The notes beneath the pieces were generated by a model. It made no database searches, was not told the DNA's origin, and saw only the letters and a program-made list of their open reading frames with translations. A stretch of 64,000 nt of DNA. Origin: an uncultured Thermoleophilia bacterium. Its GTDB lineage: Bacteria > Actinomycetota > Thermoleophilia > Gaiellales > Gaiellaceae. The stretch covers positions 60,069 to 124,068 of the forward strand of contig CAWIQC010000002.1 in the NCBI GenBank assembly GCA_963838105.1, in the 5' to 3' direction. Positions 14,528 through 42,932 of the stretch are shown in pieces (position 1 is the first letter of the stretch; each line of letters opens with the position of its first letter). The position numbers were made by a program, and so were the translations under genes.

Positions 14528-14579
14528 GTTGGGCGCACCGAGAGCCGAGCTCGGGTCGGCCCGTATCATTTCCGGCGTC

Positions 14580-23294: not shown

Positions 23295-24447
23295 CTACGA
23301 GGAAGTCAAGGCGCCGCGCGCGAGCCGGTAGATCGTGCCCTCGTGACTGACCAGGAAGAGCTGGCCGGCGGGGCCTTCGCCGAACGAGCTCAGCGCCTCC
23401 ACCCGGAAGCTGTGGCGTGCGCACGTCGGTCGCCTCGCCGCCTCGCACGACCAGGCTCCAGACGGTCCCGGAGCAGAAGTCGCCGAAGAAGTACCTGCCC
23501 TCGGCGGCCGGGATGCGCGAGCCGCGGTAGACGTAGCCGCCGGTCACGGAGCAGCCGTCGCTGTGGGAGTACTCGTGGATCGGGAAGACGAGCTCGCCGC
23601 CACCCTGGTCCGTGTCCTCGAACTCGTGGTTGCCCTCGTACAGGTCCCATCCGTAGTTCTCGAGGCCGGGGCTCGGTCGGGGCGTGTAGTCGATCTCCTC
23701 GTACTCGTTCTGGCCCACGTCTCCGATGTAGAGCTCGCCGGTGCGCCGGTCGAAGCTGAAGCGCCAGGGATTTCGGAGGCCGAGGCCGACGATCTGCCAG
23801 TCGAGACGCGCCTTGCTGACGTCGGCCCTCAGCAGCTTGCCGAGGCGCGAGGAGAGGTTCTGGGCCCTGTCCTCGGGATCGGCACGGGAGCCCCCGTCGC
23901 CCATCCCGACGTAGAGGAACCCGTCGGGACCGAACTGGAGCTGCCCGCCGTTGTGGTTCGCATACGGCTGGTCGACGAACAGGAGCTCGCGCACCTGCTG
24001 CGGGCTGCGGCCCGGTCGCGCTCGGTACTCGACGACACGTGTGTCGCCGTTGTTGTCCGTGTAGTTCACGTAGAAGAGCCGGTTGGTGGCGTAGCTCGGG
24101 TGGAACGCCATCGAGAGAAGGCCCTGCTCGCCCCGGTCCTCGGTGAGGCCCTGGATGTCGAGGAACGGGGTCGAGAGGACGCGTCCCCGCTCGACGATGC
24201 GGATGCGGCCGATCTGCTCGACGACGTAGAGCCGCCTCGGCTGGCTCGGCGTCGTGGCGACGTAGACGGGGTGCTCGAAGCCCTTGGCCACGGTGACGAG
24301 GCGCAGGCTCGGCTCGCCGGCGGCCGATCCCGGAGCCGCCGTCCCGTCAGCGGAACCGTCGCTCCCTCCCCTGTTGGCCGGGGCCTGGCTCGCGCCACAG
24401 GCCGCGAGAACGGCGGCCAGCACTCCGATGCCGAGCAGCTTCAGCAT
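23295..24447 (-). CDS. PQQ-dependent sugar (glucose/sorbosone) dehydrogenase lipoprotein, one frame break near 23400
   Basis: MLKLLGIGVLAAVLAACG lipobox. GLLSMAFHP, HNGGQLQFGPDGFLYVGMGDGG, GLRNPWRFSFD, GDVGQNEYEEI, GGYVYRG. Confidence 0.8.
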
Positions 24448-24525
24448 TTTTCCTCCGTATCGGTCCGGGGGGTCAGCCCTCACGGTAGCGGCGAGGCTTT
24501 GGCGCTTTGTAAGGAACCGTCAGGG

Positions 24526-25944
24526 TTACCGGTCCAGCTGCCGCAGCGCCGCCTGCGCGGCCCAGTAGCCGCACATGCCGTGGACCCCTCCGCCCGGCGG
24601 CGTGGACGACGAGCACAGGAAGACGCCGGGCAGCGGTGTCTCGTACGGAACCAGCCTCGCCACCGGCCTGGTGACGAGCTGGCGCAGGTCCTGGAGGCCG
24701 CCGTTGATGTCACCGCCGACGTAGTTGGCGTTGTAGCGCTCGAGCTCCTGCGGCCCGAGCACGTGGCTTGCGATGACGCGATCGCGAAAGCCGGGTGCGA
24801 AGCGCTCGATCTGCGCCTCGATCTGCGCCCGGTCATGTCGACGGGGGACCCATTCGGCACGTGGCAGTAAGCCCAGACCGTGTGCTTGCCGGGCGGCGCC
24901 CGGCTCGGATCGAAGAGGCTCTGCTGCGCGAGCAGGACGTAGGGCCGCTCCGATGTCCGCCCGGCGGCCACCGCGGCCTCGGACGCGGCGATCTCCTCGA
25001 GCGTTCCGCCGAGGTGGACGGTGCCGGCGCGGGCGCACTCGGGAGCACGCCACGGGATCGGGCCGTCGAGGGCCAGGTCGAGCTTGAACGCGCCGGGCCC
25101 GTAGCGAAATCCTGCGAGGCGGCGCCGGTAGCCGGCGGGCAGGCGGCTGCCGCCGAGGCGGAGCAGCTGGCGCGGCGTGACGTCGAGGAGCACAGTGCGC
25201 GCGCGCGGCAGCTCGGCCAGGGATTCCACACGTCGGCCGAGCTCGATCTCGCCCCCGAGCGAGCGCAGGCAGGCGGCAAGGGCTTCGGCGAGCGACTGCG
25301 AGCCGCCCCGCGGCAAGGGCCAGCCCATGTGATGGCCGAGCAAGCCGAGCACGAGGCCGAAGCCCGCGCTCGGCGAGCTGGTGAGGGGAAGGAGCGAGTG
25401 CGCAGCCAGCCCCGCGAAGAGGGCGCGGGCCCGCTCGCCCTCGAAGCGACGGCGGGCCAGGCCGACGGCCGACTGGACGCCGAGCACGCCAAAGCGGGTG
25501 AGCGGCACAGGATGCCGCGGGACGCGGAGGGGGCCGAGGATGTCGGCAAGGAGATCGGCGGAGTCCTCGACGAGCGGCGCCATGAGCCGTCGGTAGGCGT
25601 CCGCGTCGGCCCCGAGCCCCTGCGCTGTCTCCTCCACGGAGCGCTCGAGGAGCACGGCCGTCCCGTCGTCGAAGGGGTGAGCGAGCGGCGCCGGCGGCTG
25701 GATCCACTCGAGGCCGTGCCGCTCGAGGCTCGAGCGTCTGGAGGAACGGCGAGCCGAGCCCGAGCGGATGGATGGCGGAGCAGACGTCGTGGCGGAAGCC
25801 GGGAAGCGTCAGCTCCGCCGTCCGCACGCCGCCGCCCACCGTTGCGGCCGCCTCGAGCACGAGCACGGAGCACCCGGCTCGTGCCAGCACGATCGCTGCG
25901 GCGAGGCCGTTCGGCCCGGAGCCGACGACGACCGCGTCGTGCAT
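24526..25944 (-). CDS. FAD-dependent oxidoreductase of the phytoene desaturase (CrtI-like) family, at least 3 frame breaks
   Basis: MHDAVVVGSGPNGLAAAIVLARAG..VLEAAATVGGG dinucleotide fold. C-terminal YNANYVGGDINGG...LCSSSTPPGGGVHGMCG. Confidence 0.8.
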   Translation of the reverse strand: MHDAVVVGSGPNGLAAAIVLARAGCSVLVLEAAATVGGGVRTAELTLPGFRHDVCSAIHPLGLGSPFLQTLEPRAARPRVDPAAGAARSPLRRRDGRAPRALRGGDSAGARGRRGRLPTAHGAARRGLRRSPCRHPRPPPRPAASCAAHPLWRARRPVGRRPGPPSLRGRAGPRPLRGAGCALAPSPHQLAERGLRPRARLARPSHGLALAAGRLAVARRSPCRLPALARGRDRARPTCGIPGRAAARAHCAPRRHAAPAAPPRRQPPARRLPAPPRRISLRARRVQARPGPRRPDPVACSRVRPRRHRPPRRNARGDRRVRGRGGRRADIGAALRPARAAEPLRSEPGAARQAHGLGLLPRAEWVPRRHDRAQIEAQIERFAPGFRDRVIASHVLGPQELERYNANYVGGDINGGLQDLRQLVTRPVARLVPYETPLPGVFLCSSSTPPGGGVHGMCGYWAAQAALRQLDR

Positions 25945-25948
25945 CTAG

Positions 25949-26166
25949 AGGTTGATTCCACGATCCACGCGCGGCCGGATGCGCCATCTGGCGCGTCTGG
26001 GCCGCTTCCGTTCCTTTCTGAGAGGCCGTGCGGCCTCTCAGACAGGCCCGTGCGCTTCGCGAGGTCGGGGCTTGCCGAGGCGTCCAGCCTCGCCTGCGCC
26101 CCGGCCTCGTGTCCCAGAGCGGCCAGCTGACGCCCCGGCGGAGGCGGATCTCGTGGAATCAACCAT
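25949..26166. mobile_element. MITE copy 1 (218 bp)
   Basis: Terminal inverted repeats (a)ggttgattccacga ... tcgtggaatcaaccat, flanked by CTAG at 25945..25948 and 26167..26170. Internal 11-bp-stem hairpin tctgagaggcc-gtgc-ggcctctcaga. Near-identical to 42656..42874. Confidence 0.85.
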
Positions 26167-26886
26167 CTAGCCGCGCGGCCCGACTCCTCCCGCGGCGCGG
26201 GCGCATTGCATGGAGGGTCGAGCGGATGGGCGCCGAGTGCCTGATGTTCCCGGCCTTCGACCACTGGCGCCGGCGGTCGACGCAGACGACCTGCGTCTCG
26301 ACGGCGGCCGAGACGCCGAGGTGGGCGGCCAGGTTCGCCAGCGTCTGCTCCCAGAAGCGGTCCTCCACCCGGTGCCCGCCGAGAGCGAGCCCGAGCTCTG
26401 TCAGGGGGTCCTGCGCCCGGACGAGCAGCTGCGCCTGAGCCACGGTCTCCCCATCCTCCTCGTGGGCGCTGAACGTGATCCAGCCGGCGAGCATGTGGCC
26501 CTGGGGCGTCATCTCCGTGAACGACACGTCGTCGGCGTGGAGTGTCATCACGCCGGTCGAGAGCTTGAGCCCGGCCGGCCCGGCCGCCTTGATCAGCGCG
26601 ACCTCGCCCGGCTCGATGCCGGTGAGCGGCGGGTAGAACGTGTTTCCTTCCGGCCAGAACTCGGCGAAGTGCTCCTTCCAGACGCGCGATCACCTCGGCC
26701 GGCGTGAGCTGCGAGCCCTCGAGCCGGACGCGGTACGTCTTCTGCCACATCTTCCCGAAGCCCTGGAGCGGGCCGAGCGAGGCGCTTGCCCTCGACGAGG
26801 TTGGCGGCTCCCTCCGGCACGGACTCGACGTGGAGCGTCGAGACCGGCTTCGCCCAGCGCCCCGCGTCGCGCGGTGTCTCGTTCAT
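26159..26886 (-). CDS. Conserved hypothetical protein, last gene of the sensor operon, at least 3 frame breaks
   Basis: RBS GGAGGA plus ATG 26886. MNETPRDAGRWAKPVSTLHVESVPEG.. / GFGKMWQKTYRVRLEGSQLTPAEVI / MTLHADDVSFTEMTPQGHMLAGWITFSAHEEDGETV. Present stop codon lies inside the MITE end. Confidence 0.55.
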
Positions 26887-26901
26887 CGTCTCCTCCTTCG
26901 G

Positions 26902-27252
26902 TCAGGCGACGGCTGCGAGCGCGTCGGCCTCCGAGTCGTAGATTCCGATCGCCTCGTCGAGGCGCGTGAGCTCGAAGATCTGGCGGTAGTGCTCGTTGAG
27001 GCCGAAGGCGAGCAGCTTCTGCTTCGCCCGGTTCGCTCGCACGAGCAGGGTGACCAGCAGTCCGATCCCGCTCGAGTTCATGTACTCGAGCTCGCTGAAG
27101 TTGAGCACGAGCGCGCGCACTTCCTCGCCGCCGGCGCGGGCGTAGGCGTCCATCAGCGCGTCCTCGCTCGCGGCCGTGATCTCGCCGCGCACGTCCACGA
27201 CGCAGGCGCCGTGGCCGGCGTCCCGCACCTCCAGGTTGAGCGTCGTCTGCAT
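26902..27252 (-). CDS. STAS-domain anti-sigma-factor antagonist (RsbV/SpoIIAA-like), copy 2
   Basis: RBS GGAGGA plus ATG 27252. MQTTLNLEVRDAG..VVDVRGEIT...LVLNFSELEYMNSSGIGLLVTLL...GLNEHYRQIFELTRL. Intact. Confidence 0.85.
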   Translation of the reverse strand: MQTTLNLEVRDAGHGACVVDVRGEITAASEDALMDAYARAGGEEVRALVLNFSELEYMNSSGIGLLVTLLVRANRAKQKLLAFGLNEHYRQIFELTRLDEAIGIYDSEADALAAVA

Positions 27253-27265
27253 GTGTCCTCCTTCC

Positions 27266-27600
27266 TCAGCTCGCGTCCTCGTCCGGAATGATCCGGACGA
27301 AGTCCGCGATGCGGGTGATCTCGAAGATCTCGCGGTAGTGGTCGGCGAGGCCTCGGGCCTCGAGCTCGACGCGGTCCCGGCGTCCCTTCGCAAGCAGCCC
27401 GACGAGGAGCGCGATGCCGGTCGAGTTGATGTACCCGACGCGGCTGAAGTCGAGCGTGACGACCCGCGCCCCGTGCCCGTCGCCTCCGCGTAGGCGGCTT
27501 CCAGCGCAGCTTCGGCGCCACCGTCGACGTCGCCCTCGAGCTCGACGACAGCCGCCTCGGCCGCCGGCTGCACGCGCGCCTCAAAGCGACTCGTCTGCAT
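27266..27600 (-). CDS. STAS-domain anti-sigma-factor antagonist, copy 1, one frame break near 27470
   Basis: RBS GAGAGGAGA plus ATG 27600. MQTSRFEARVQP..VVELEGDVD / ARVVTLDFSRVGYINSTGIALLVGLL...GLADHYREIFEITRI. Start overlaps the end of the upstream gene by 20 nt. Confidence 0.75.
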
Positions 27601-30477
27601 CCACGTCTCCTCTCAACCGGAACGCGAGCTCGAGCGTGTGGCTCTCGCCCTCCGTCCAGGTCTCGATGCCGTCAGCCATGTGCTCGATCAGGAACAGGCC
27701 CCAGCCGCGTGGCTTCTGCTCGGCCCTCGAGCTTCGCCTCGAGGTCGGGTCGTTCGGGCTCGACCATCGGGCGCGCTCCGCCGCCGTCCGTGATCCGCAC
27801 GCGGAGCCGCTCGCCGTCGGCGAGCACCTCGATGGCAACAGGCAGCTCGGGCCGTGAGTCGTTGCCGTGCTCGATCGCGTTCATGGCAGCCTCGGAGACG
27901 GCTGTCCGCAGCCGTTCGAGCGTCGTCGCGGGAACGGCGAGCCGCGCGACTGCCGTCGTGACACGCTTCCATGGCCTCCCGCTCGTTGCCGGGCACGCTC
28001 GCCAGCTCGAACGCGGCAAGCACCGTGCCGTTTCCGCCTCGCGGAGGTCGACCGGCTGCGGCGCCCGCTCGAGCGCCACGAGCGTGATGTCGTCCTCCTG
28101 CTCCCAGGCCGAGCCGGTGAAGCGGTCGAGCTCTGCGAGCAGGCCGTCGACCGGTGAGGTCGAGGCGGGCGAGAGCCCCATGAGCTCCCGCAGGCGCGGG
28201 AAGCCGAACATCTCGCCGCCCGGGTCGTGCGCCTCGACGAGGCCGTCCGAGTAGAGGAGCAGGCTCTCGCCGGGCTCGAGCACGGCCTCCTTCTCGTCGT
28301 ACGTCCATCTCCGGCATCAGGCCCAGCGGCATGCCGGTCGCGCGAAGCTCCACGGAGCCGCTCGCCGTGCGCACGCACGGCAGGTTGTGGCCGGCGTTCG
28401 CGTAGCGGAGCACGCCGGTCGACGGCTCGAGAACCGCGAAGAGGCAGGTCACGAACATCTTCGGCGGCATGTCGGGGCACAGCAGGTCGTTCGCTCGGCG
28501 CAAGCACCGCCGCGGGCGAGGCCTGCCGCTGCGACGTAGCCCGCAGGACGCTCCGCGTCGCCGCCATGACCATCGCGGCCGGGACACCCTTGTCGGTCAC
28601 GTCGCCCGACCACGAAGGCCGACCCGGCCGTCCGTCGAGCTCGATGACGTCGTAGAAGTCGCCGCCGACCTCTCGGGCCGGCCGGTAGTGGGCCGAGACC
28701 TGCCAGCCGGCGAGGTCGGGGAGCTCGCGCGGAAGGAAGTTCTGCTGGATGAGCCGGGCGACCTCGAGCTCCTGCTCGATCCGCTCGTGCTCACGCGCCT
28801 GGTATCTCCTGCTCGCGCACGAGCTGGCCGACCCGGAGCGCCGGCGCGGCCTGGGCGGCGAGGTTGTCGAGCAGCCGGCGATCGTCGGTCGAGTAGTCCT
28901 GATCGGAGAGCCGCGGCCCGAGGTTGAGCAGGCCGATCAGCTCGCCCTGGCTGACGAGCGGCACGACGAGCTTCACGCCCGTCGTCGTCAGCGCCGCGAG
29001 CGCAGGCGAGTCGAGCTCGAGGCTGTCGACGTCGATTGCGCCGGAGGCGCTCTCGAAGTACGCGACGAGCGGGTCGTTGGGAGCGATGTCGAGGTCGAGC
29101 GCTCCGGCGGGGCTCGCCGGTGTGTGCGCGGCGAGATCTCTCGCTTCGTCCGGCGGAGGCGCGGGATCCTGCGGCTGCGCTCGACGGAAGATGTGGGACA
29201 AACGCGTCATTGCTCTGCTCCTGTTGTACGGCCGACGCCGTCCGGCGGGCGTTACGGCATCCGTTACGGCGGGACGAAGCCAGAGCGACACCCGCTCGGG
29301 CTCCAGCGTTCGCCGCACGACGGCGGTGAGCTCGCCGTGGAGCGCGGCGATGTCGATCTCGTCGCGCAGCCGGGCGGAGAAGGCCTCGAGCGTGCGCTGG
29401 GCGTCGTAGCGGCGGCGGTAGAAGCGCCGGTCGACCGCTCGCTGAACTCGGGCCCGCACGGGACGGAAGAGCGCGGCGACGGCGAGCGTGGAGACGGCGA
29501 TGGCGAGGTCGGAGCCGCCGCCGAAGGAGGAGAAGACCTCCTGGAGGCCGAGCACGATCCCGAAGTAGGCGCCGACGAGCAGCGCCGAGACCGCGCCGTA
29601 GACGACTGCCCGGTTGACGATCCGGTCGATCTCGTAGAGGCGGTAGCGGAGGATGGCGATCCCGGCCGAGACCGGGATCGTGGCGATGGCCAGGAGCAGG
29701 AGCGGCTCCCAGACGGCGCCGTCGTCGATGTACCAGAAGAGGAGCGGGCCGCTCGCAAAGGCGGCGCCCACGAGGCCGGCGGCGCTCGCGACCCACTTGA
29801 GCTGCTGGCGCTCGAGCCCTGTCGCCCGGCGGAAGCGGAGGACGAGCGAGGTTGCCGAGACGAGAATGCCGACGAACATGAGGATGGAGGCGATGTTCGC
29901 GACGATCTCCAGCGCGTCCGCGAGCGCGCCTCCGGCTGCGTACGGGTTCTGTCAGAGGCTCGAAGTCCTCGAGCGTGTGGGGGCTGAACATCTCTCCGAG
30001 CAGAGCGAGCACGATGGCGCCGACGACGATCCAGACGACCGGCACCCAGCGCCGCGACAGCAGTCGACCCTCGGGGAAGAGGAGGAAGAGCAGCGTCGCG
30101 GCGAGGAACAGCGGTGGCAGAAGGAGCCACGACCCCAGCCAGGCCATCGTCTCGCCGGCCGGAAGGGAGCCGGGCTCGGTCAGCAGCGCGTAGAGGGCGT
30201 ACTGGTTGGCGAAAGCGGCGAGCGCGAACAGGCTTCCCAGGCCGACGAAGATCCAGCCGATCGGGTTCTCGGGGCGGCGAGAGGCGATGAGGGCGCCGAC
30301 GGTCGGAAAGCCAGGACGACGATCCCGAACAGGGCATCGCCGAGCGTGACGATCCGAAGTTGCTCGACGCCCGGCGTCGAGCGGTTGAGGATCAGGAATG
30401 CGAGCGCGGCGAACGTCAGCGCGATGGCGATCGCGCAAACCGCCCAGGCGAGACGGGTCGTGCCACTGCCGGCTCAT
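27581..30477 (-). CDS. Array paralog A: polytopic membrane module plus conserved juxtamembrane segment, fused to GAF-like, PP2C (SpoIIE/RsbU-type) phosphatase and RsbW-type HATPase kinase domains; many frame breaks
   Basis: - Membrane module: [85 protein letters not shown].
- GAF-like: VVPLVSQGELIGLLNLG.
- PP2C: GDFYDV..GDVTDKGVPAAMVMA..YANAGHN..LLLYSDGLVEA..DDITLVAL.
- Kinase: AAMNAIEHGN...GWGLFLI. Confidence 0.8.
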
Positions 30478-31705
30478 CGCTGCACCTTCGGTCCTCGGAG
30501 CCAGAGCGACACCTGAGCGGGCTCCAGCGTTCGCCCCACCACGGCGGTGAGCTCGCCCTGGAGCGCCGCGATGTCGACCTCGTCGCGGAGGCGGGCGGCA
30601 GAAGGCCTCGAGCGTGCGCTGCGCGTCGTAGCGGCGGCGGTAGAAGCGCCGGTCGACAGCTCGCTGGACTCGGGCCCGCACGGGACGGAAGAGCGCGGCG
30701 ACGGCGAGCGTGGAGACGGCGATGGCCAGGTCCGAGCCTCCGCCGAACGACGAGAACACCTCCTGGAGGCCGAGCACGATCCCGAAGTAGGCGCCGGCGA
30801 GGAGCGCAGAGACCGCGCCGTAGACGACCGCCCGGTTGACGATCCGGTCGAGCTCGTAGAGGCGGTAGCGGAGGATGGCGATCCCGGCCGCGATGGGGAT
30901 GGTGGCGACTGAGAGCAGCAGAACCGGCTCCCAGGGCCCGTCGTCGATCCACCAGAAGAGCGAGCGGGCCGCTGGCCCATGCCACGGCCACCAAGCCCGC
31001 GGCGCTCGCGACCCACTTGAGCTGCTGCCGCTCGAGGCCCGTCGAGCGGCGAAACCGCAGGATCAGCGAGATGGCCGACGCGATAAGGCTTGCGAGCATC
31101 AGCACGAACGCCACGTTCGCGACGATCTCGAGGGCGTCGGCAGCCGCACCTGCGACTGCGTACGGGTTCTCGATCGACTCGAAGCCCTCGAGCGGGCCGG
31201 GCAAGAACATCTCCGCGAGCAGGGCCAGCACGATCCCGCCCCCGGCGGCCCAGAGGACCGGCAGCCAGCGCCGCGAGAGAAGTGGCCGTTGGGGAAGAGG
31301 AGGAAGACCAGGGTTCCGCTCAGGATGAGCGGAGCCAGGAAGAGCCAGGACTGCAGCCAGGCCATCGCCATGCCCGCGGGCAGCGACCCCGGCTCGGTGA
31401 CGAGCGCGTAGGAGGCGTACTCGTTCGCGAAGGCCGAGATCGCGAACATCGCTCCGAGGCTGACGAAGATCCAGCCGATCGGGTTCCCCGGACGGCGGGA
31501 GGCGACGAGCGCCCCGACGGTCGAGAACGTGAGCAGAGCGACGACGAAGAAGACGGTCGCGACCTGCGATCCGATCGTGCTCATCCCCCTCTCATCGGGG
31601 CTCGAGCGGTTGAGAACGAGCGAACGCGAGAGCGGCTAACGTCAGGGCGAAGGACGAGCGCCGCAGACCCCCCAGGCAAGGCGTGTCGTCGGCGGGCCGG
31701 CTCAT
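30474..31705 (-). CDS. Array paralog B: membrane module plus juxtamembrane segment, no output domain; frame breaks
   Basis: MSRPADD.., [75 protein letters not shown]-stop. TGA overlaps the ATG of paralog A (ATGA at 30474..30477). Confidence 0.7.
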
Positions 31706-32947
31706 CGGCTCGCCTCCTGCGTCTCGGAGCCAGAGCGAGACCTGAGCGGGCTCCAGCGTTCGCCCCACGACGGCGGTGAGCTCGCCCTGGAGCGCGGCGA
31801 GGTCGATCTCGTCGCGGAGGCGGGCGGTGAAGGCCTCGAGCGTGCGCTGGGCGTCGTAGCGGCGGCGGTAGAAGCGCCGGTCGACCGCCCGCTGGACTCG
31901 GGACCGCACGGGCCGGAAGAGCGCCGCGACGGCGAGCGTGGAGACGGCGATGGCGAGGTCGGAGCCGCCGCCGAAGGACGAGAACACCTCCTGGAGGCCG
32001 AGCACGATTCCGAAGTAGGCGCCGGCGAGGAGCGCGGTCACCGCGCCGTAGACGAGGGCCCGGTTGACGATGCGATCGATGTCGTAGAGGCGGTAGCGGA
32101 GGATCGCGAGCCCGGTCGCCAGCCGGGATGGTGCCGAGCGCGACGAGGCCGAACCGGCATCGGGGGGCCCGTCGAAGCTCGTGCGAGAAGGCGAGCGGCC
32201 GATCGTTCAGCGGCACGATGACGAGCAAGCGCGCGGCGACCGAGGCGAGACCCACTTGATCTGCTGCCGCTGCTCGCGGTTCGCGAGGCGAAACCGCAGG
32301 AACGAGCGAGGTCACCGAGGCGATCAGGAGCACGACCAGGCGTGTCAGGCCGAAGCCACGTCGGCGACGAATCTCGAGGACGCCGGCACGCCGACCTGGG
32401 GTTCGTCGAGGTGCTCGAGCGGCTACCTCGAGCGGGCCCGCCCGGAACGTGAACGAGAGCGGGCGCCAGCACGATCAGCCACGGCGGCCGCGAAGTAGCG
32501 ACGGACGCCAGCGCGCCGACGAGAAGACGGCCGTCGGGAAACAGGAGGACGATCACCGCCATGACGCCCGAGGACGAGCGGATCCAGGTCCAGCCAGGAC
32601 GAGCCAGAGCGACGCCACGCGCCGCCGGCAGCGAGCCCGCGCTCGGTCGCGAGCTCGGCGTAGCCGCCGGACACGTTCGCGAAGCCCGAGATCGAGGACG
32701 CCGCGCCAGGCGAGAAGAACCAGCCGATCGGGTTCTCCGGGCGCCGGGAGGCGACGAGCGCGCCCACGGTCGCGAAAACGCTGAGGATAGCGACCCAGGA
32801 CGACGACAGCCCGACCTGCGATCCGAGTCGGCATCCGAGCCCGTTCCGGTGCTCGAGCCGTAGAACGACGAGACCAGGCCGGCTGAGATCAGCCGAGGAC
32901 GCCGACCCAGGCGCCCCAGGCGAGGCGGTGGCCGTGCGGCTGCTCAC
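31702..32947 (-). CDS. Array paralog C: same family, the most heavily frame-broken copy
   Basis: GTG 32947 overlaps the stop of the cyclase gene (GTGA). [45 protein letters not shown] (from DNA), [25 protein letters not shown]. Expected ATGA junction with B is out of frame here. Confidence 0.55.
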
Positions 32948-34285
32948 CGCTCCACCTCGGCGGCGAAGAGCTGACGCTCGCCCTGCACGCCCTTGAGCTC
33001 ACGGGTGCGAGGGTCTTCGAAGCGGACCCCGGAGCCGGCCACGAGCTCGCGGACGGTGCTCGAGACGAGGATCTCGCCGGCGCCGGCCATCTCGGCGACC
33101 CGCGCTCCGATGTGCACCGCGATGCCGCCCAGGTCGTCGCCGTGGAGCTCGCACTCACCTGCGTGGACACCCGCGCGGAGCTCGAGACCGAGCGGCCGGA
33201 CGCCGTCGCGAACGGCGGCGGCGCAGCGGATCGCCTGCGTCGGGCTGTCGAAGGCTGCGAAGAAGCCGTCGCCTGTCGTCCGGAGCTCGCGACCGCGGAA
33301 GCGATCGAGCTCCCTTCGCACCAGCTCGTTGTGGCGCTCGAGCAGCTCCTTCCAGCGACTGTCGCCGAGCCTCGTCACGTGCTCCGTCGAGCCGACGATG
33401 TCGGTGAAGAGCAGGGTCGTCAGCACCCGCTCGGGCTCGGGAGCGGTCCGGCGCGCACCGGTCACGAGCTCCTCGACCTCGCCGACGAGCGTCTCCGCGT
33501 CGCCGGCGAACGGCCAGTGGTCGTCGCCGGGAAGCTCGACGAGTCGCGCGCCGTGGATGTGATCGGCCAGATAGCGGGAGTGACCGACGTCGACGAACCG
33601 GTCGCCCCTCCGGTGGAGGACGAGCGTGGGCGCCCGGAGCCCGTCGAGCCGGTCGCGCACGTCGAGCTCGGTGTTCATCCGCATGAGCGAGACCGCGCGC
33701 CCGGGGCTCGCTCCGAGCCGCAGGAGCCGGGCGAACCAGCTCCGGTAGGCCTCGTCGTCTGCCAGGCTCGGCGCGAGAAGCGCGGCGCCGTCGCGCGGTG
33801 CCCCAGCCCTCCTCGGTCGCCGAAAGGTAGAGCTGGATCGCCGCCGGCGACCAGCCGAGGTCGTAGCCGTCGCCCTGGGTGAACTTCGCCAGGCCGGCGT
33901 AGAGGGCGAGCGCCGCGACGCGCTCGGGGTGCTCGGCGGCGAAGAGCGCGGCCAGCGCAGCGCCGTCGAACACGCCGAGGAGAGCGGCGCGCTCCGAGCC
34001 GGCGGCGTCGAGCACCGCGCCGATGTCGTCGATCCGCGCCTCCGGGGTCGGGAGGCCGTCCACGGGGTCGGACATGCCGGTGCCGCGCTTGTCGAACACG
34101 ATCAGGCGCGAGAAGGCCGCGAGCCGGCGCAGGAAGCGGGCGGACGCCGGCAGCTCCCAGCTCCATTCGGCGTGCGACAGGAAGCCCGGCACGAGCATCA
34201 GGTCGACCGGGCCCTCGCCCACGACCTGGTACGCGATCGTGACCTCGCCGCTGCGGGCGTAGCGCGTGTCGACCTGTGGCGTCAT
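32944..34285 (-). CDS. alpha/beta-hydrolase fused to a class III adenylate/guanylate cyclase domain, at least 1 frame break
   Basis: MTPQVDTRYARSGEVTIAYQVVGEGPVDLMLVPGF...FDKRGTGMSD...GVFDGAALA; then LLFTDIVGSTEH...RTTGDGFFAAF...RAGVHAGECE...GIAVHIGARV. ATGA overlap with upstream paralog E. Confidence 0.8.
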
Positions 34286-35484
34286 GTCGCACGCTCCCGG
34301 AGCCAGACCGATACGTGCGCCGGCCGCATCGTCTCGTCGACGGTGGCGGCGAGCTTCGTCTCGAGCGCGGCGAGCTCGACCTCCTCGCGCACGTGGCTCG
34401 CGAATGCCTCGAGGGTGCGCTGGGCGTCGTACTTGCGCCGGTAGAAGCGGCGATCGACGAGGGCCTGGATGCGGCCCCGGACCGGACGGAAGAGCGCGAA
34501 CGCGATGAGCGTCGACGCCGCGATCGCGAGATCGCCGCCTCCGGCGAACGACGAGAACACCTGCTGGAAGAGTAGGACGATCGCGAGGTAGAGGCCGGCG
34601 AGGGCCACGGTCGCCGTGCCGTAGACGAGCGTGCGGCGGATGATCAGGTCGATGTCGTAGAGGCGGTACCGCAGGATCGCGAGGGCGGTCGCGATGGGGA
34701 TGCCCACGAGCAGGGCGAACAGCGTGGCGGCCCAGAGGACGTCCCCGGCCAGCTCCCAGTCCACTGCCGCGAACGGGAGGACCAGGGCGATCGGGGTCGG
34801 CAACGACAAGGGCGAGCCACTTGAGCTGTTGGCGCTCGACTCCTCTGGCGCGCCGGAAGCGAAGCGCGAGCGAGAGAACTGCCGCCGCGAGGCTCGCGAC
34901 GAGCAAGCGCTGCGCCGGCCAGCCGCAGTCGCTTCCAGCAGGCCGGCCGCGTCGACGCCGAGCGGGTTTGGCGAACCCCCCGTAGAGAGGGTCGGGGTGC
35001 AGGCCTTCACCCAGGATCGAGAGCACGATCGCGCCCGCAGCCAGCCAGATGGCGAGGCGCCAGCGAGGCGTGAGCGGCCGGCCGTCAGGGAAGAGGAGCG
35101 AGGAAGATCGCGCTGAGCGCGAACGCGGGCCAGGTGCTCCACTCGTAGAACCACGCGAGCCACTGCGGCGCGGGCACCGCGTCGGGCCGCACGGCGGCGA
35201 TCTCGCCGCCGATCTCGACGATGCCGTTCGAAGGCCCAGACGAGCGACGTGCAGCACATGACCCAGCCGACGGCGTTCTCGGGCCGGCGAGCGGCGACGA
35301 GCGCGCCGGTCGTCGCGAACACGGCGAGCCCGAGGTCACCGAGAATCGTGAGCCAGAGCGGCTCGATGTCAGCCTCCTCCGCCGCAGACGCGCCGTAGAC
35401 GGCGAGAGCGATCCCGAGCCCGGTGAGGGCGAGGTACAGGGCCCAGAGGGACCAGGCGAGGCGGGTTGTTGTGCGCGTGCTCAC
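34282..35484 (-). CDS. Array paralog E: membrane module plus juxtamembrane segment, no output domain; frame breaks
   Basis: GTG 35484 (GTGA overlap with F). [93 protein letters not shown]-stop. Confidence 0.7.
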   Translation of the reverse strand: MSTRTTTRLAWSLWALYLALTGLGIALAVYGASAAEEADIEPLWLTILGDLGLAVFATTGALVAARRPENAVGWVMCCTSLVWAFERHRRDRRRDRRRAARRGARAAVARVVLRVEHLARVRAQRDLPRSSSLTAGRSRLAGASPSGWLRARSCSRSWVKACTPTLSTGGSPNPLGVDAAGLLEATAAGRRSACSSRASRRQFSRSRFASGAPEESSANSSSGSPLSLPTPIALVLPFAAVDWELAGDVLWAATLFALLVGIPIATALAILRYRLYDIDLIIRRTLVYGTATVALAGLYLAIVLLFQQVFSSFAGGGDLAIAASTLIAFALFRPVRGRIQALVDRRFYRRKYDAQRTLEAFASHVREEVELAALETKLAATVDETMRPAHVSVWLRERAT

Positions 35485-36651
35485 GTTCGTATGTCGGGCG
35501 ACCGTAACCAGAGCGAGACCTGTGCGGGCTGCAACGTCTCCTGCACGACGCCGCGGAGCTCCTCGCCGAGCGCGTCGAGGTCGATCTCGTCGCGCAGGCT
35601 GGCGGAGAAGCTCTCGAGGGTTCGCTGAGCATCGTAGCGACGGCGATAGAACCGCCGGTCCACCAACTGCTGGATGCGTCGTCGGGCCGGGCCGAACAGC
35701 GCGGCGACCGCGAGCGTCGAGACGGCGACGGCGAGGTCGGAGCCGCCCGCGAACGACGAGAACACCTTCTGCAGGGCGAGCACGATCCCGAAGTAGAGGC
35801 CGGCCAGAGCTACCGTGGCGACGCCGTAGACGAGGGTTCGCTTGAGGACGAGATCGAGGTCGTACAGCCGGTAGCGGAAGATCGCGATGCCTGCCGCGAT
35901 CGGCAGACTCGAGAGTCCCAGAGCTCCGAGCACGGACAGCACCTCGCCCGAGTCGATGAGGAAGAACGAGGCGATGAAGATCGGTGCCGCCGCGAGGAAC
36001 CAGCGGAGCTGCTGCCGCTCGTCCGCCCCTGCAGAGCGATATCGGACGAACACGGACACTACTGCGAGCAACAGCGCGAGCATTGTCCCGAGCCACGCCC
36101 AGTCGCCGCCGGAAAACAACGGGAACTCGATCTCGATGGGCTTGTCTGCCCCGGTAACGCTCGAGAGCGTGCCCGGCCCGAGGGCGGTTCCCAGCCCCAT
36201 CACGAACAGCGAGGCAGCGGCGAGCCAGGCGACGGGACGGAATCGTGGGGAGGTCAATTCCCCGGTCGGAAACAGCAGGAGGAGAAACGTTCCGAGCGCG
36301 AGCGCGGCGACAGGAGCCAGATCTGCCGCCAACCCTGCCCAGGAGCCGCCCGGCAGCGAGCCCGGCGACTCTCGAAGTGCGTAGATCGCGTATTCCTGGC
36401 AGAACAGCGCGATCTGAATTCCGAGTCCCAGCCGCGAGGAAGATCCAGCCGACCCGGTTCCCGAACCGGCGTGACACGATCAAGGCGCCGACGGCCGAGT
36501 AGGCGAGGATCGAGACGATGAGGGCCGGGTCGGTCGCCCGCGGGAGGTCGGAGACCTCGAGTGAGCGCGTGGGCACCCACAGCGCGAGCCCCGCGGCGGC
36601 GAACGCGACGGAGAGCCCGAAGAGCGACCAGGCTACGCGGCCGCTCGTCAC
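35481..36651 (-). CDS. Array paralog F: membrane module plus juxtamembrane segment, no output domain; one or two frame breaks
   Basis: GTG 36651 (GTGA overlap with G). [97 protein letters not shown]-stop. Confidence 0.75.
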
Positions 36652-37902
36652 CGCTTCTCCTGAGCAGGACGAAGCCAGAGCGAGACGTCGGAGGGTTGCA
36701 TGGTGTCGCGAACGACGGTACGTAGCTCGGTGCCGAGCGCGTCGAGGTCGACCTCGTCGCGGAGGCGGGCGGAGAAGGTCTCGAGCGTGCGCTGGGCGTC
36801 GTAGCGGCGGCGGTAGAAGCGCCGGTCGACGGCGTGCTGGACGCGCCGGCGCGCGGGCCCGAACAGCGCCGCGACGGCGAGCGTCGAGACGGCGACGGCG
36901 AGGTCGGAGCCGCCGGCGAACGACGAGAAGACCTGCTGCAGGGCGAGCACGATCCCGAAGTAGAGGCCGGCCAGGCCGGCGGTCGAGGACGCCGTAGACG
37001 AGCGTCCGGCGGATGATCACGTCGATGTCGTAGAGGCGATACCTGAAGATCGCGATGCCGATGGCGAGCGGGAGAGCCACGAGGCCGGCGACCAACGGCG
37101 CCGCGCCGATCCAAGACTCCCCGTTCGTGGCCGAGAGCGTGATGAATCCAGCTGCGAGGAGGGTGGCCGCGTAGGCGAACCACTTGAGCTGCTGGCGCTC
37201 GTCTCCCCTGGCACGGTGAAGGCGAAGCACGAACGAGCTCGCCGAGGCGAGGATGCTGACGACGAGCAGCGTCCAGCCGGTGGAGCCCTTCGAGCGACGT
37301 CGAAGAACCGTCCGGCGCGGTCGATCCCGAACGGATTCTCGATCGAGGTGATGTCATCGAAGCCGCCCAGCGGGCCCGGGCGAGAACGAGCCCAGGAAGA
37401 GGGCGACGAGGGAGCCCGCTGCGAGCCACGCGACGGGTCGCCAGCGCCGCGAGGGCAACCGACCGTCCGGGAAGAGGAGGAGGAGGAACGCTGCGGTGAT
37501 ACCCAGTCCGACGTAAGGCGTCCACGACCAGAGCCAACCCAACGCCTGACCTGCTGGCAGCGAGCCGGGGTTTGTGAAGATGGCGTAGATCGCGTAGCCC
37601 TGGGCGAAGCCGGAGATGGCAAAAGCACCCCCGGCGGCAATGAGGATCCAGCCGATCGCATTGCCGGTCTGGCGCGTGGCGATGAGGGCTCCGACGGCCG
37701 AGAAAGGAAGGAAGACGAGTGCGAAGAGCGCCTCGTCGTGCGCCTCCTCGCCGTCCGGGAGCGGCGTCGAGAGGTTGAGGGCCAGAAACGCGAGGCTGAG
37801 CGCGGTGAGCACGAGCGAGAGCCCGGCGAGCCCGAGGGCCACCCGGACCCAGATCGTGGTAGCCCCCGGTCTTCCCATGCGAATCGGCCGGCTCCTAGCC
37901 AC
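36648..37902 (-). CDS. Array paralog G: membrane module plus juxtamembrane segment, no output domain; frame breaks
   Basis: [113 protein letters not shown]-stop. Start is GTG 37902 or ATG 37878. Confidence 0.75.
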
Positions 37903-38358
37903 AGCTACGGCTCAGTCTGTCGAACCGCCAAGCTCGGACGGCCACGAGCTGAGCGATCAGGACGATGGCCAGCGCATTGACGACGTGCAGGGCAGACAAC
38001 GTCGGCACGTTGTCCTGCGCGAGGACGAGCAGGCCCTGGACGATCGTCAGGCCCGTGAGCAGCGCAGATGGCCAGAGGATCCCGCGACCCATTCGCCAGC
38101 GAGCGCCGTGAGCAGGATGAGCGCGGCGATGAACGTGAGCACGCTGCCGAGAATCCGGTGGGCGCCGAAGCTCTGCCCATCGAAGACGGCTAGGCCTGCG
38201 AGCAAGAACTGGGTGACCAGCCCCGCGAGGAACGCGACGACGAAGATCCAATGAAGGGTCCGGGCTGCGCGTCGCTGGGGCCTCCAGTGGAATCGTCGCC
38301 TCGTTGTTCGCGGCGACGAACCGAGCTTTGCCACGGGGCTGGTGCGAAGATCGCTCAC
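37895..38358 (-). CDS. Small polytopic membrane protein (possibly DUF6220-like), one frame break near 38060
   Basis: GTG 38358 overlaps the stop of paralog H (GTGA). [35 protein letters not shown]... / ...[24 protein letters not shown]. Family assignment is from memory only. Confidence 0.5.
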
Positions 38359-39590
38359 CGACCGCTCCTGAGCCAGAGCGAGACGTGTGCCGGCTGCATC
38401 GTCTCCTCGACGACGCCGGTCGAGCTCATCTCGCAGCGCGTGCAGGTCGATCTCGTTGCGCAGGCTGGCGGAGAAGCTCTCGAGCGTGCGCTGGGCGTCG
38501 TAGCGGCGCCGGTAGAAGCGGCGGTCCACCGCGGTTTGAATTCGTCGCCGCGCCGGCCCGAACAGTGCGGCGACGGCGAGGGTCGAGACGGCGACGGCGA
38601 GGTCGGAGCCGCCGGCGAACGACGAGAACACCTGCTGCAGGGCGAGCACGATGCCGAAGTAGAGGCCCGCCAGCGCGGCGGTCGCGACGCCGTAGACGAG
38701 CGTCCGGCGGATGATCACGTCGATCTCGTAGAGGCGGTACCTGAGGATCGCGAAGCTGGCGGCGATCGGGATCGCGGTGAGCGCAGCGACCGCCAGCGCG
38801 CCAGGACCAGCTCCTCGAAAACGGCCGACCCCGTGTCCTCGGACGAAGCCCTCCTACCAAGAAGACGACGGCGAAGAACACGCCGTGCTCGCCACCCACT
38901 TGAGCTGCTGACGCTCGACGGCTCCCGAGCGCCGGAAGCGCACGACGAGCGCCGCCGCGGCGATCGCGAGGCTCGGGAGAAGAATGAACCAGCCGGCCAC
39001 TGCGGCGTTCCCGAGCACCTCGGGCGCTCCCTCGATGCGGAGCGGGTTCTCGACGTGCTCGAACGGCTCCGTGAGCGTCTCCGGCGCGAGAACGCCGACG
39101 CAGAAGCGCGAGGAGACCGACGGCCTGGAGCCACACGAGAGGCCGCCAGCGGCGCGAGGGAGGCCTTCCCGTCGGGAACAGCAGCAGGATCAGCACCCCC
39201 GCGAAGAAGGCCACGGCCCAGATGTTGGCGCCGACGAATGCCGCGTACGCGCCTCCGGGAAGGGAGCCGCGGTTCCGCGACGAGCGCGTGGTGGCCGTAC
39301 GCCGTGGCGAACACCGCGACGGCGAGGACGACGCCGACGACGCAGAAGAGCCAGCCGATGGGGTTTCCGGGTCGTCGCCTCGCGATCGATCGATGCCGAC
39401 GGCCGGCGAACGCGACTGGCCGGGATGAGGACGACGGCGTCGTCCCAGCGATCGTCGATATGCGCCGAGCGGCGAGCGTGCCCGCCGAGCCAAGGCGAGC
39501 GAGAGCCGCAGAGGGCACCCAGGCGAACGGCGCGCTCAGGTGGGCAAGAGCCGCGTCGCGGCGATCAACGGATTCTCCGCCAACGCGCAC
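38355..39590 (-). CDS. Array paralog H (first gene of the operon): membrane module plus juxtamembrane segment, no output domain; frame breaks
   Basis: [94 protein letters not shown]-stop. Start GTG 39590 is approximate. Confidence 0.7.
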
Positions 39591-42624: not shown

Positions 42625-42655
42625 TGGCTGCGCCATTGTAGCGAGGCAGGCCTAG

Positions 42656-42874: not shown

Positions 42875-42918
42875 CAAGAGGGTTTGACGCCGTCCGCTCG
42901 GCGCGCTACCCTCAGATA

Positions 42919-42932
42919 CGAACATACGTTCG
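42919..42932. promoter_or_regulatory. LexA operator (Cheo/SOS box) CGAACATACGTTCG
   Basis: Perfect GAAC-N4-GTTC palindrome 18 nt upstream of the lexA start. Confidence 0.8.

What the first reader, a model, noticed from the sequence alone, without database searches (positions are those of the whole stretch)
26902..30477. Antagonistic PP2C phosphatase and RsbW-like kinase fused in one membrane protein, two STAS partners, no sigma factor
Paralog A carries a SpoIIE/RsbU-type PP2C domain (GDFYDV, DVTDKGVPAAM, YANAGHN, LYSDGLVEA, DDITLVAL). An anti-sigma-type HATPase (NAIEHGN ... GWGLFLI) follows directly. Two separate STAS genes come next, the first overlapping the end of A by 20 nt.

Fusions of these opposing activities are known, for example M. 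tuberculosis Rv1364c and S. coelicolor OsaC. Here the fusion is anchored to a polytopic sensor, and the operon contains no sigma factor or other obvious target. The only sigma gene in the window is the Spo0H-like one at 13866, which is unlinked. The two STAS proteins differ around the phosphorylatable position (DFSRVGYINSTGI versus NFSELEYMNSSGI), so they may be distinct substrates.
Basis: partly seen in the sequence, partly recalled or inferred. Interest (0 to 1): 0.65.

Follow-up and report, generated by a model that had tools for sequence, protein, structure and literature searches.

The report
Fused phosphatase-kinase switch, not membrane-anchored
A soil actinobacterial operon encodes one soluble protein carrying both a PP2C phosphatase and an RsbW-type kinase, followed by two STAS substrates, but its apparent fusion to a membrane sensor is a one-base sequencing error, and the likely output is a conserved lipid-binding-fold protein rather than a sigma factor.

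Summary
The domains are real. After correcting the window's many 1-bp indels, a 539-aa ORF (29210-27581, minus strand) carries half a GAF domain, a PP2C domain and an RsbW/SpoIIAB-type kinase domain. Two STAS genes follow, the first overlapping by 20 nt. Both keep the canonical phospho-serine.

The link to the polytopic membrane protein is not real. It depends on one extra C at 29234. That base is missing from three near-identical contigs and from spanning contigs in four other public runs. The membrane gene ends at a TGA overlapping the next ATG (ATGA).

The gene boundary cuts a GAF domain in two, and single-ORF versions exist in other lineages. The two proteins therefore probably dock.

No sigma gene is linked. 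The only one in the window is SigH-type, about 13 kb away.

The cassette continues in 16 of 17 related species with a 238-aa START/SRPBCC-fold protein, usually followed by a CrtI-like flavoenzyme. In about 30% of its family clusters this protein is fused to a STAS2-type domain, making it the best candidate output.

PP2C-kinase fusions are already known (HsbR, CrsR, SypE, Rv1364c). This is a new variant of a known kind.

The parts
29207..30477 (-). Membrane protein A, about 422 aa, with about 9 hydrophobic segments and no Pfam family. It is the last of seven tandem paralogues. Its cytoplasmic tail ([19 protein letters not shown]...VSLWLRP) supplies the N-terminal part of a GAF domain. The stop TGA at 29209-29207 overlaps the next start codon.
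   Evidence: tblastn map. Intact orthologue in L001 ending ...TPAGRRGRTTGAQQ*. Hydropathy. No Pfam hit. GAF profile positions 1-~45 map to this tail in single-ORF relatives. dN/dS 0.19.
29234..29234 (.). Window-only extra base (C on the minus strand, in ggcgtCggccg). It puts the membrane ORF and the phosphatase-kinase ORF in one frame and is an assembly or sequencing artefact.
   Evidence: Absent from L001-L003. Reported as 'left out 1' at 29234 at 100% of depth in runs X2, X3, X5 and X7. About 19 similar window-only indels lie nearby.
27581..29210 (-). Soluble 539-aa bifunctional regulator, in order: C-terminal half of a GAF domain, helical linker, PP2C (SpoIIE-type) phosphatase, RsbW/SpoIIAB-type HATPase_c_2 kinase. 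It is broken by about 12 one-base indels in the window.
   Evidence: The corrected translation is a clean ORF with 24 aa differences over 539 from the relatives' majority sequence. Alignment A1 gives 96% identity to P0001. Orthologues P0001-P0006 are 539-540 aa. Pfam on P0002. dN/dS 0.155.
28836..29099 (-). GAF C-terminal half (residues ~38-125). It matches only profile positions ~70-133 of the GAF models.
   Evidence: (P0002: GAF 67-125 to profile 70-133), compared with full-length GAF matches in the single-ORF relatives P0008 and P0015.
28065..28640 (-). PP2C/SpoIIE phosphatase domain (residues ~192-380). The metal-binding aspartates are kept (GGDFYD, GDVTDKG, SDG, EDDIT).
   Evidence: Pfam SpoIIE 5e-53 on the orthologue. 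D184, D187, D202, D205, D320, D371 and D372 are invariant in A1. PDB matches are Rv1364c, RssB and SpoIIE.
27626..27993 (-). HATPase_c_2 kinase / anti-sigma-type domain (residues ~404-525). It has an N box (EAAMNAIEHGN), a G1 box (DGGG) and a G2 box (GWGLFLI).
   Evidence: Pfam 5.7e-21. E437, N441, H445, D472, G474, G499 and G501 are invariant. SpoIIAB structures match at 3e-7. NCBIfam spIIAB and RsbW give sub-threshold hits.
27266..27600 (-). STAS1, 111 aa, with canonical Ser60 in INSTG. It overlaps the kinase ORF by 20 nt. The window lacks one base at about 27475.
   Evidence: Ser is kept in 31 of 32 STAS1-type sequences, the exception being a frameshifted L085 ORF. dN/dS 0.34.
26902..27252 (-). 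STAS2, 116 aa, intact in the window, with canonical Ser60 in MNSSG. This STAS type is the one fused to the SRPBCC domain in other genomes.
   Evidence: 46 of 49 fused STAS domains score higher with the STAS2-type HMM. It passes the NCBIfam anti-sigma-antagonist cut-off, 61 against 53.45 bits.
26168..26886 (-). U238: a 238-aa protein with no Pfam or NCBIfam hit of its own. It has an SRPBCC/START/Bet v 1 fold and is a distant relative of DUF1990. It is the candidate output of the switch. It is frameshifted in the window.
   Evidence: tblastn. AF2 pLDDT 93.6. Foldseek top 50 are all SRPBCC members. Present downstream in 16 of 17 close species loci. STAS-U238 fusions.
25945..26170 (-). MITE-like element of about 226 bp with terminal inverted repeats, inserted in the 3-nt spacer between U238 and the flavoenzyme gene. 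A second copy lies at 42652-42878. It is absent from relatives.
   Evidence: blastn 96% over 227 bp. Alignment with L001.
24480..25944 (-). CrtI/CrtO-like FAD-dependent oxidoreductase, about 470-490 aa, frameshifted in the window. It travels with U238 even where the phosphatase-kinase gene is absent.
   Evidence: Pfam NAD_binding_8 and Amino_oxidase. NCBIfam CrtO/CrtI-family hits below cut-off. Orthologues lie next to STAS-U238 in L093, L094 and L095.

Best explanation
This is a partner-switching-type phospho-relay cassette in an uncultured high-GC soil actinobacterium. The closest species representatives are Gaiellales, Thermoleophilia and Rubrobacteraceae.

A soluble 539-aa enzyme carries both the PP2C phosphatase and the RsbW/SpoIIAB-type serine kinase. 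Together these set the phosphorylation state of Ser60 on two dedicated single-domain STAS proteins.

Input most likely comes from the upstream polytopic membrane protein A. Its stop codon overlaps the enzyme's start codon. Its C-terminal tail encodes the missing N-terminal part of the enzyme's GAF domain. The two polypeptides therefore probably reconstitute one GAF module, which controls PP2C activity through the helical linker, as in other sensor-linker-PPM phosphatases.

Output is most likely not a locus-encoded sigma factor. The proposed path runs from STAS2 to the next gene product, an SRPBCC/START-fold protein (U238) that probably binds a hydrophobic ligand. U238 works with the adjacent CrtI-like flavoenzyme. 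On this model, phosphorylation of STAS2 gates its binding to U238.

Shown: gene structure, domains, catalytic and phospho-acceptor residues, purifying selection, synteny, and the domain fusions.

Inferred: who binds whom, the direction of regulation, the ligand, and reconstitution of the split GAF domain.
For: Gene structure and selection:
- Domains and motifs.
- Intact 539-aa orthologues.
- The corrected ORF, with dN/dS of 0.15-0.34 across the four genes.

Separate, coupled genes:
- ATGA overlap in relatives and in the corrected window.
- The same ATGA coupling between membrane paralogue 4 and the hydrolase-cyclase gene at 34284 in the window itself.

Split GAF domain:
- Single-ORF relatives match the full GAF profile across tail plus N-terminus. 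The stand-alone protein matches only profile positions 70-133.

STAS proteins:
- The canonical Ser is conserved in both STAS types.

U238 as output:
- The cassette PP2C-kinase/STAS/STAS/U238 is conserved in 16 of 17 close species loci, including Blastococcus saxobsidens and Ktedonobacter racemifer.
- Three of three look-ups that started from U238 landed in the same cassette.
- 44-49 of 150 U238 family clusters are STAS-U238 fusions, and 46 of 49 fused STAS domains are STAS2-like.
- A minimal two-gene module, PP2C-HATPase_c_2 followed by STAS-U238 with a 17-nt overlap, occurs in L091 and L092.
- U238 has an SRPBCC fold.
- U238 is linked to the flavoenzyme in L093-L095.

Precedents:
- Fused PP2C-kinase regulators with an adjacent STAS partner and non-locus outputs: HsbR/CrsR (PMC6482189) and SypE/SypA (PMC8256260).
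- A STAS domain fused to a regulated enzyme: HenR/All4160 (PMC13555669).
- Sensor-linker-PPM control (PMC12143880).
Against: - No interaction or phosphorylation was tested.
- Conserved gene order and domain fusion show functional linkage. They do not show direction, so U238 could be an input or merely co-expressed.
- Only about 12 of 42 fused STAS-U238 proteins keep Ser or Thr at the canonical position. Many family members therefore cannot be phospho-regulated in this way.
- In some relatives the phosphatase-kinase gene is not adjacent to a membrane paralogue. Strict one-to-one GAF complementation is therefore uncertain.
- All seven membrane paralogues carry the same GAF-like tail, although only one GAF C-terminal half is encoded.
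- The HATPase_c_2 domain resembles true anti-sigma factors. An unlinked sigma target cannot be excluded from 64 kb.
Confidence: 0.45

Rival explanations
1. This is a classical anti-sigma switch with an unlinked sigma. The HATPase_c_2 domain sequesters a SigB/SigF-type sigma factor encoded elsewhere, as CrsR and HsbR do with RpoS and Rv1364c does with SigF. One or both unphosphorylated STAS proteins release it. U238 and the flavoenzyme are only operon passengers or regulon members.
For: - The kinase domain matches SpoIIAB/RsbW anti-sigma factors.
- The closest solved structure is Rv1364c.
- HsbR and CrsR have the same PP2C-then-kinase order, an adjacent STAS gene and an unlinked sigma.
- STAS2 passes the anti-sigma-antagonist model cut-off.
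Against: - No sigma gene lies in the cassette in any of about 30 related loci.
- The only sigma in the window is SigH-type. To my knowledge, SigH-type sigmas are not controlled by RsbW-type kinases.
- This model does not explain the recurrent STAS-U238 fusions or the two-gene PP2C-kinase + STAS-U238 module.
Confidence: 0.3
2. U238 is the input rather than the output. It would be a ligand-binding SRPBCC receptor that regulates the PP2C or kinase domain when loaded, like plant PYR/PYL receptors inhibiting clade-A PP2Cs. The STAS proteins would then act on an unknown target.
For: - U238 has an SRPBCC fold, and PYL-PP2C complexes are among the Foldseek matches.
- U238 is tightly linked to a PP2C gene.
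Against: - PYL hits are not better than many other SRPBCC hits, and they are over-represented in the PDB.
- The recurrent covalent partner of U238 is STAS, not PP2C.
- U238 with the flavoenzyme also occurs without a PP2C gene nearby.
Confidence: 0.12
3. In this particular strain the membrane sensor and the GAF-PP2C-kinase really are one 970-aa polypeptide, and the C at 29234 is genuine.
For: - The window reads through in frame.
- Genuine single-ORF fusions exist in other lineages (P0007 and P0015).
Against: - The same 4.5 kb holds about 19 other window-only 1-bp indels, which break conserved domains under purifying selection.
- Seven independent sequences lack the base.
- Short-read-derived contigs also leave out the other inserted bases.
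Confidence: 0.03
4. The locus is a decaying pseudogene array with no function.
For: Every gene except STAS2 is frameshifted in the window.
Against: - Substitutions against relatives show dN/dS of 0.15-0.34.
- All frameshifts are window-only single bases.
- Genes outside the locus are equally fragmented.
- Orthologues are intact in other assemblies.
Confidence: 0.02

Closest known systems
HsbR-HsbA (Pseudomonas aeruginosa) and CrsR-CrsA (Shewanella oneidensis)
   Same: One polypeptide carries a PP2C phosphatase followed by an RsbW-type kinase/anti-sigma domain. The STAS partner is encoded next to it. No sigma gene is in the locus. HsbA also has non-sigma partners, FlgM and HsbD (PMC6482189).
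   Different: - Their input is an N-terminal receiver domain fed by a phosphorelay. Here it is half a GAF domain, apparently completed by a membrane protein.
- They have one STAS partner. Here there are two conserved STAS paralogues.
- They have no SRPBCC or flavoenzyme partners.
- They are proteobacterial, not actinobacterial.
Rv1364c (Mycobacterium tuberculosis)
   Same: It is the best solved-structure match (3KE6, 2e-17), aligned through the PP2C domain into the kinase domain. It is an actinobacterial protein with a sensor domain, PP2C and an anti-sigma kinase on one chain.
   Different: Rv1364c has a PAS sensor and carries its STAS domain on the same chain. It is tied to SigF. Here the STAS proteins are separate genes and no sigma is linked.
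SypE-SypA (Vibrio fischeri)
   Same: A dual serine kinase/phosphatase controls phosphorylation of a single-domain STAS protein at the canonical Ser. The output is not a known sigma factor (PMC8256260).
   Different: From my own knowledge, the SypE domain order is kinase-REC-PP2C. The SypA target is unknown, and no SRPBCC partner is described.
HenR-All4160 (Anabaena PCC 7120)
   Same: A PP2C phosphatase and kinases act on a STAS domain that is covalently attached to the regulated effector. This parallels the STAS-U238 fusions found here (PMC13555669).
   Different: There the effector is a glycosyltransferase, and the kinase and phosphatase are separate proteins.
SpoIIE/SpoIIAB/SpoIIAA and RsbU/RsbW/RsbV (Bacillus)
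   Same: All three component families are present, with catalytic and phospho-acceptor residues conserved.
   Different: In Bacillus the phosphatase and kinase are separate proteins, and the sigma factor is encoded in the same operon.

Membership tests
Partner-switching module (RsbU/SpoIIE - RsbW/SpoIIAB - RsbV/SpoIIAA type) | PPM/PP2C phosphatase domain with conserved metal-binding aspartates | tested here: met
   SpoIIE 7e-49 and 5e-53. D184, D187, D202, D205, D320, D371 and D372 are invariant.
Partner-switching module (RsbU/SpoIIE - RsbW/SpoIIAB - RsbV/SpoIIAA type) | GHKL-type serine kinase (HATPase_c_2) with N, G1 and G2 boxes | tested here: met
   HATPase_c_2 5.7e-21. Boxes are invariant in A1. 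SpoIIAB structures match at 3e-7.
Partner-switching module (RsbU/SpoIIE - RsbW/SpoIIAB - RsbV/SpoIIAA type) | Single-domain STAS protein with Ser at the canonical phospho-acceptor position | tested here: met
   Both STAS genes are present. Ser60 sits in INSTG and MNSSG. It is kept in 31 of 32 STAS1-type sequences and in all STAS2-type orthologues.
Partner-switching module (RsbU/SpoIIE - RsbW/SpoIIAB - RsbV/SpoIIAA type) | Cognate sigma factor encoded with, and sequestered by, the kinase | tested here: not met
   No sigma gene lies in the cassette here or in about 30 related loci. The window's only sigma is SigH-type, about 13 kb away. Binding to an unlinked sigma cannot be tested with these tools.
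Partner-switching module (RsbU/SpoIIE - RsbW/SpoIIAB - RsbV/SpoIIAA type) | Reversible phosphorylation of STAS by the kinase and phosphatase | not testable with these tools
   Needs biochemistry.
Fused PP2C-kinase regulators (HsbR/CrsR/Rv1364c type) | PP2C and RsbW-type kinase on one polypeptide, with PP2C N-terminal | tested here: met
   Intact 539-aa orthologues. Corrected window ORF. The alignment to Rv1364c runs across the junction.
Fused PP2C-kinase regulators (HsbR/CrsR/Rv1364c type) | Receiver-domain input (HsbR/CrsR), or PAS input plus a C-terminal STAS on the same chain (Rv1364c) | tested here: not met
   No REC, PAS or in-chain STAS. Only the C-terminal half of a GAF domain precedes the PP2C.
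   Continuity depends on a window-only base at 29234 that is absent in 7 independent sequences. This form is genuine in other lineages (P0007 and P0015).
GAF domain | Complete GAF profile matched within one polypeptide | tested here: not met
   P0002 matches profile positions 70-133 only. P0008 and P0015 match positions 1-132 across the segment that is split between two genes here.
SRPBCC / START / Bet v 1 superfamily (for U238) | Helix-grip fold: a beta-sheet wrapped around a long C-terminal helix | tested here: met
   AF2 pLDDT 93.6 and pTM 0.88. All 50 top Foldseek PDB hits are SRPBCC members, with E of 2e-5 to 7e-4 and target-normalised TM of 0.5-0.66.
Pfam DUF1990 (for U238) | Score above the Pfam gathering threshold | tested here: inconclusive
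   The L001 orthologue of the window protein has no DUF1990 hit, and P0121 has none on record. 28 of 150 family representatives hit DUF1990 (best 1.7e-7), some just above the cut-off.

The most novel reading that the evidence does not exclude
A widespread, undescribed kind of partner switch has an SRPBCC/DUF1990-like lipid- or isoprenoid-binding protein as its effector, paired with a CrtI-like flavoenzyme, rather than a sigma factor. In this lineage its sensor module is a GAF domain split between two translationally coupled genes. One or several of the seven paralogous membrane sensors could then plug their GAF N-terminal fragment into the single phosphatase-kinase, merging many membrane signals into one phospho-switch.
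Probability: 0.3. Interest if true: 0.7.

Novelty: new variant of a known kind. Interest (0 to 1): 0.45.

Why it matters
Partner switching is usually taught as sigma-factor control. The targets of 'orphan' STAS proteins such as SypA remain an open question.

This cassette offers a concrete, testable candidate for a non-sigma output. The candidate is an SRPBCC-fold protein repeatedly fused to the STAS domain, with 1,186 family hits at E<=1e-3 among 1.84 billion cluster representatives. Two culturable carriers, Blastococcus saxobsidens DSM 44509 and Ktedonobacter racemifer DSM 44963, make experiments possible.

The split GAF domain would be an example of a sensor and an enzyme coupled by domain complementation.

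The case also shows that an apparent domain fusion in an indel-rich assembly can rest on a single base.

Tried and rejected
- A GC3-based fragment map of the whole window was too noisy to use directly. A greedy non-overlapping subset was used for Pfam instead.
- The first AF2 model of U238, from 29 close homologues, was poor (pLDDT 65) and its Foldseek hits were marginal. It was replaced by a 95-sequence alignment (pLDDT 93.6).
- The early impression that U238 is specifically PYL-like was dropped. With the good model, PYL receptors are just some of many SRPBCC hits.
- Local phmmer with two sigma seeds found only sporadic ECF sigmas more than 3 kb from the cassette (L022, L087), which does not amount to linkage.
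- The promoter/terminator scan of 24000-31000 found nothing on the minus strand and is uninformative for a 71% GC genome.
- A literature search for DUF1990 returned only the chloroplast channel Oep23 and proteomics lists, which do not help with function.
- The pseudogene explanation was rejected on dN/dS and on the fact that only the window carries the indels.
- A possible link between the CrtI-like enzyme and fatty-acyl desaturases of furan fatty-acid synthesis rests only on my memory, plus one locus with DUF1295 and photolyase neighbours. It was not pursued.


Full report
**State of the sequence.** The window is about 71% GC. On the minus strand between 30477 and 26902 no long ORF exists; the coding signal jumps between frames every few hundred bases. 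Pfam on the stitched product gives SpoIIE 7e-49, HATPase_c_2 1.4e-19 and GAF 1e-7, and both small ORFs are STAS. The domain content is therefore real, but the gene as printed is broken at least eight times.

**Nature of the breaks.**
- The nearest database proteins (P0001-P0004, 90-92% identical) are intact 539-aa proteins that start at MTRLSHIFRR.
- Three contigs carrying one of them (L001-L003) are 94.5% identical to the window at DNA level.
- A four-way alignment shows about 16 one-base insertions and 4 one-base deletions, found only in the window, within 4.5 kb.
- Removing them restores clean ORFs.
- Substitutions against the relatives give dN/dS of 0.19 (membrane protein), 0.155 (phosphatase-kinase), 0.34 (STAS1) and 0.15 (STAS2).
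- Contigs from independent soil and rhizosphere metagenome runs also leave out the inserted bases.
- The breaks are technical errors, not gene decay.

**The membrane 'fusion'.**
- One of the extra bases, a C at 29234, lies in the 60-nt tail between the last conserved membrane-protein residues (VSLWLRP) and the ATG of the 539-aa gene.
- With it, the two ORFs read in one frame.
- Without it, the membrane ORF ends ...TPAGRRGRTTGAEQ* at a TGA that overlaps the next start (ATGA), as in L001-L003.
- Every contig spanning the site in four further runs lacks the base, at 100% of depth.
- The same ATGA arrangement joins membrane paralogue 4 to its hydrolase-cyclase gene at 34284 in the window itself.
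- In JGI short-read contigs the phosphatase-kinase gene is likewise free-standing. Some copies are not even adjacent to a membrane paralogue.
- The single membrane-anchored polypeptide is therefore an artefact in this lineage.

**A real link to the membrane protein remains likely.**
- Single-ORF proteins joining this membrane domain to GAF-PP2C-kinase exist on short-read contigs (P0007, 1122 aa; P0015, 1067 aa).
- Fusions without the kinase domain occur in several phyla (L024, L025, L027, L029, L036).
- In these proteins the conserved membrane-protein tail (YDA..TLEAFS...VSLWL) is contiguous, across a short variable loop, with the N-terminus of the 539-aa protein.
- In them, all three Pfam GAF models match their full length across this segment. 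The free-standing protein matches only profile positions 70-133.
- The gene boundary therefore cuts a GAF domain in its variable loop.
- I infer, but could not test, that the two polypeptides reassemble one GAF module.
- All seven tandem membrane paralogues (39371-29207) end with the same GAF N-terminal fragment.

**The phosphatase-kinase and its substrates.**
- After correction the protein has the PP2C metal-binding aspartates and the N, G1 and G2 boxes of the kinase. All are invariant in homologues down to 47% identity.
- The best solved-structure match is Rv1364c (3KE6, 2e-17), aligned through the PP2C domain into the kinase domain. Next come the RssB and SpoIIE phosphatase domains, then SpoIIAB for residues 406-516.
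- STAS1 (27600-27266) overlaps the kinase ORF by 20 nt. STAS2 (27252-26902) follows after 13 nt.
- The two STAS proteins form two conserved orthologous groups. Ser at the canonical position (INSTG; MNS[S/G]G) is kept in 31 of 32 STAS1-type sequences and in all STAS2-type orthologues examined.

**Sigma factors.**
- Pfam scans of the remaining coding fragments found one sigma-70-family gene, at 13929-14561. It is SigH-type (236 bits against a cut-off of 208).
- No sigma gene lies in the cassette in any related locus with precomputed Pfam annotation.
- The 90-locus phmmer map agrees. It shows only two ECF sigmas, each more than 3 kb away.

**What follows the STAS genes.**
- The next gene, U238 (26886-26168), is a 238-aa protein with no Pfam or NCBIfam hit. 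It is highly conserved, with 5,460 relatives at E<=1e-5.
- Among GTDB species-representative loci with a close phosphatase-kinase homologue and enough downstream sequence, 16 of 17 have U238 after the STAS genes. At least 13 of the 17 have two separately called STAS ORFs. Carriers include Blastococcus saxobsidens DSM 44509 and Ktedonobacter racemifer DSM 44963.
- Three look-ups that started from U238 homologues all landed in the same cassette.
- A profile search of 1.84 billion cluster representatives found 1,186 family members.
- Of the best 150, 44 (Pfam) to 49 (local HMM) carry an N-terminal STAS domain fused to U238. Seven add a pyridine-nucleotide-disulphide oxidoreductase.
- In 46 of 49 fusions the STAS part is closer to the STAS2 type.
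- One such fusion sits directly behind a PP2C-HATPase_c_2 gene with a 17-nt overlap, giving a minimal two-gene version of the system.
- Others sit in front of an orthologue of the window's next gene, a CrtI/CrtO-like FAD oxidoreductase (25944-~24480).

**Fold of U238.** With a 95-sequence alignment AlphaFold2 gives pLDDT 93.6. All top Foldseek matches belong to the SRPBCC/START/Bet v 1 superfamily, including Ms6760, CoxG, PR-10 proteins, PYL receptors and ARO/CYC. 28 of 150 family representatives also hit DUF1990. This fold typically binds hydrophobic ligands (established knowledge of the superfamily).

**Mechanism.** The most likely reading is a partner-switch-type phospho-module.
- A membrane signal reaches the GAF module through membrane protein A. 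This shifts the balance between the PP2C and kinase activities of the 539-aa enzyme and sets the phospho-state of STAS1 and STAS2.
- STAS2 then engages or releases U238, which works with the flavoenzyme. This resembles the STAS-fused glycosyltransferase controlled by HenR in Anabaena.
- STAS1 may feed back on the kinase domain.
- The classical alternative is that the kinase domain holds an unlinked sigma factor, as in HsbR/CrsR. This remains open and is the main rival.
- Sensor-linker-PPM control is a described general mechanism.

**Comparison and novelty.**
- PP2C-kinase fusions are well known: HsbR, CrsR, SypE and Rv1364c.
- 22 of 53 distant PP2C homologues in the genome scan also carry the kinase domain.
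- JGI already annotates these proteins as 'RsbU / anti-sigma regulatory factor'. The headline feature is therefore ordinary.
- The new elements are the split GAF input, the conserved pair of STAS paralogues, and the SRPBCC/flavoenzyme partners.
- I rate this a new variant of a known kind, of moderate interest.

Noticed in passing
window 26800-31300, and apparently the whole window: Single-base indels occur about once per 225 bp. They are mostly insertions, are not in homopolymers, and are unique to the window compared with three near-identical contigs. Nearly every gene in the window is fragmented. Any frame-dependent finding from this window needs reference-guided correction.
   Followed up: yes
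window 29207-39371, minus strand: Seven tandem paralogues of a ~400-aa polytopic membrane protein with no Pfam family. All end in the cytoplasmic motif RYRLY(D/E)ID...[16 protein letters not shown]...VSLWLR, which corresponds to the N-terminal part of a GAF domain. Relatives carry up to 8 copies (L084). In other genomes the domain is fused to HisKA_3 histidine kinases, Ser/Thr kinases and GAF-PP2C.
   Followed up: partly
window 32944-35484, minus strand; junction at 34284: Membrane paralogue 4 is translationally coupled (ATGA) to a ~446-aa alpha/beta-hydrolase + guanylate/adenylate-cyclase protein. This is the same sensor-plus-output gene-pair design as at the phosphatase-kinase gene, and it is conserved in relatives. 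A second hydrolase + cyclase-like gene lies at about 56373-57648 on the plus strand.
   Followed up: partly
window 25945-26170 and 42652-42878: Two copies, 96% identical, of a ~226-bp MITE-like element. It has ~20-bp terminal inverted repeats (TGGTTGATTCCACGAGATCC...) and an internal 10-bp-stem hairpin. One copy is inserted exactly in the 3-nt spacer between U238 and the flavoenzyme gene. It is absent from all related loci fetched and may uncouple the flavoenzyme from the operon in this strain.
   Followed up: partly
window ~3400-14561, plus strand: A SigH-type sigma gene (13929-14561) lies downstream of gltX, cysS, a SpoU/RlmB-type methylase and a YacP-like NYN gene. From my own knowledge this resembles the Firmicutes sigH neighbourhood. 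Here it is interrupted by unrelated genes (GNAT, EamA, AsnC, pta, amidase) in a 71% GC actinobacterium-like genome.
   Followed up: no
window ~48800-54500: Two phage-integrase-family genes, a Fic/DOC gene and several unannotated ORFs, next to lexA (42923-43570). This may be an integrated mobile element.
   Followed up: no
L094 (Logan contig SRR33577240_329854): In this contig a STAS-U238 fusion and its CrtI-like flavoenzyme are flanked by a DUF1295 (steroid-reductase-like membrane protein) gene and a DNA photolyase gene. This hints at a light- or oxidative-stress-related lipid-modification context for the U238/flavoenzyme pair.
   Followed up: no
L084 9511-9963: In one relative, a second SRPBCC protein (Polyketide_cyc2, 150 aa) sits immediately upstream of the phosphatase-kinase gene, between it and the array of eight membrane paralogues.
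   Followed up: no
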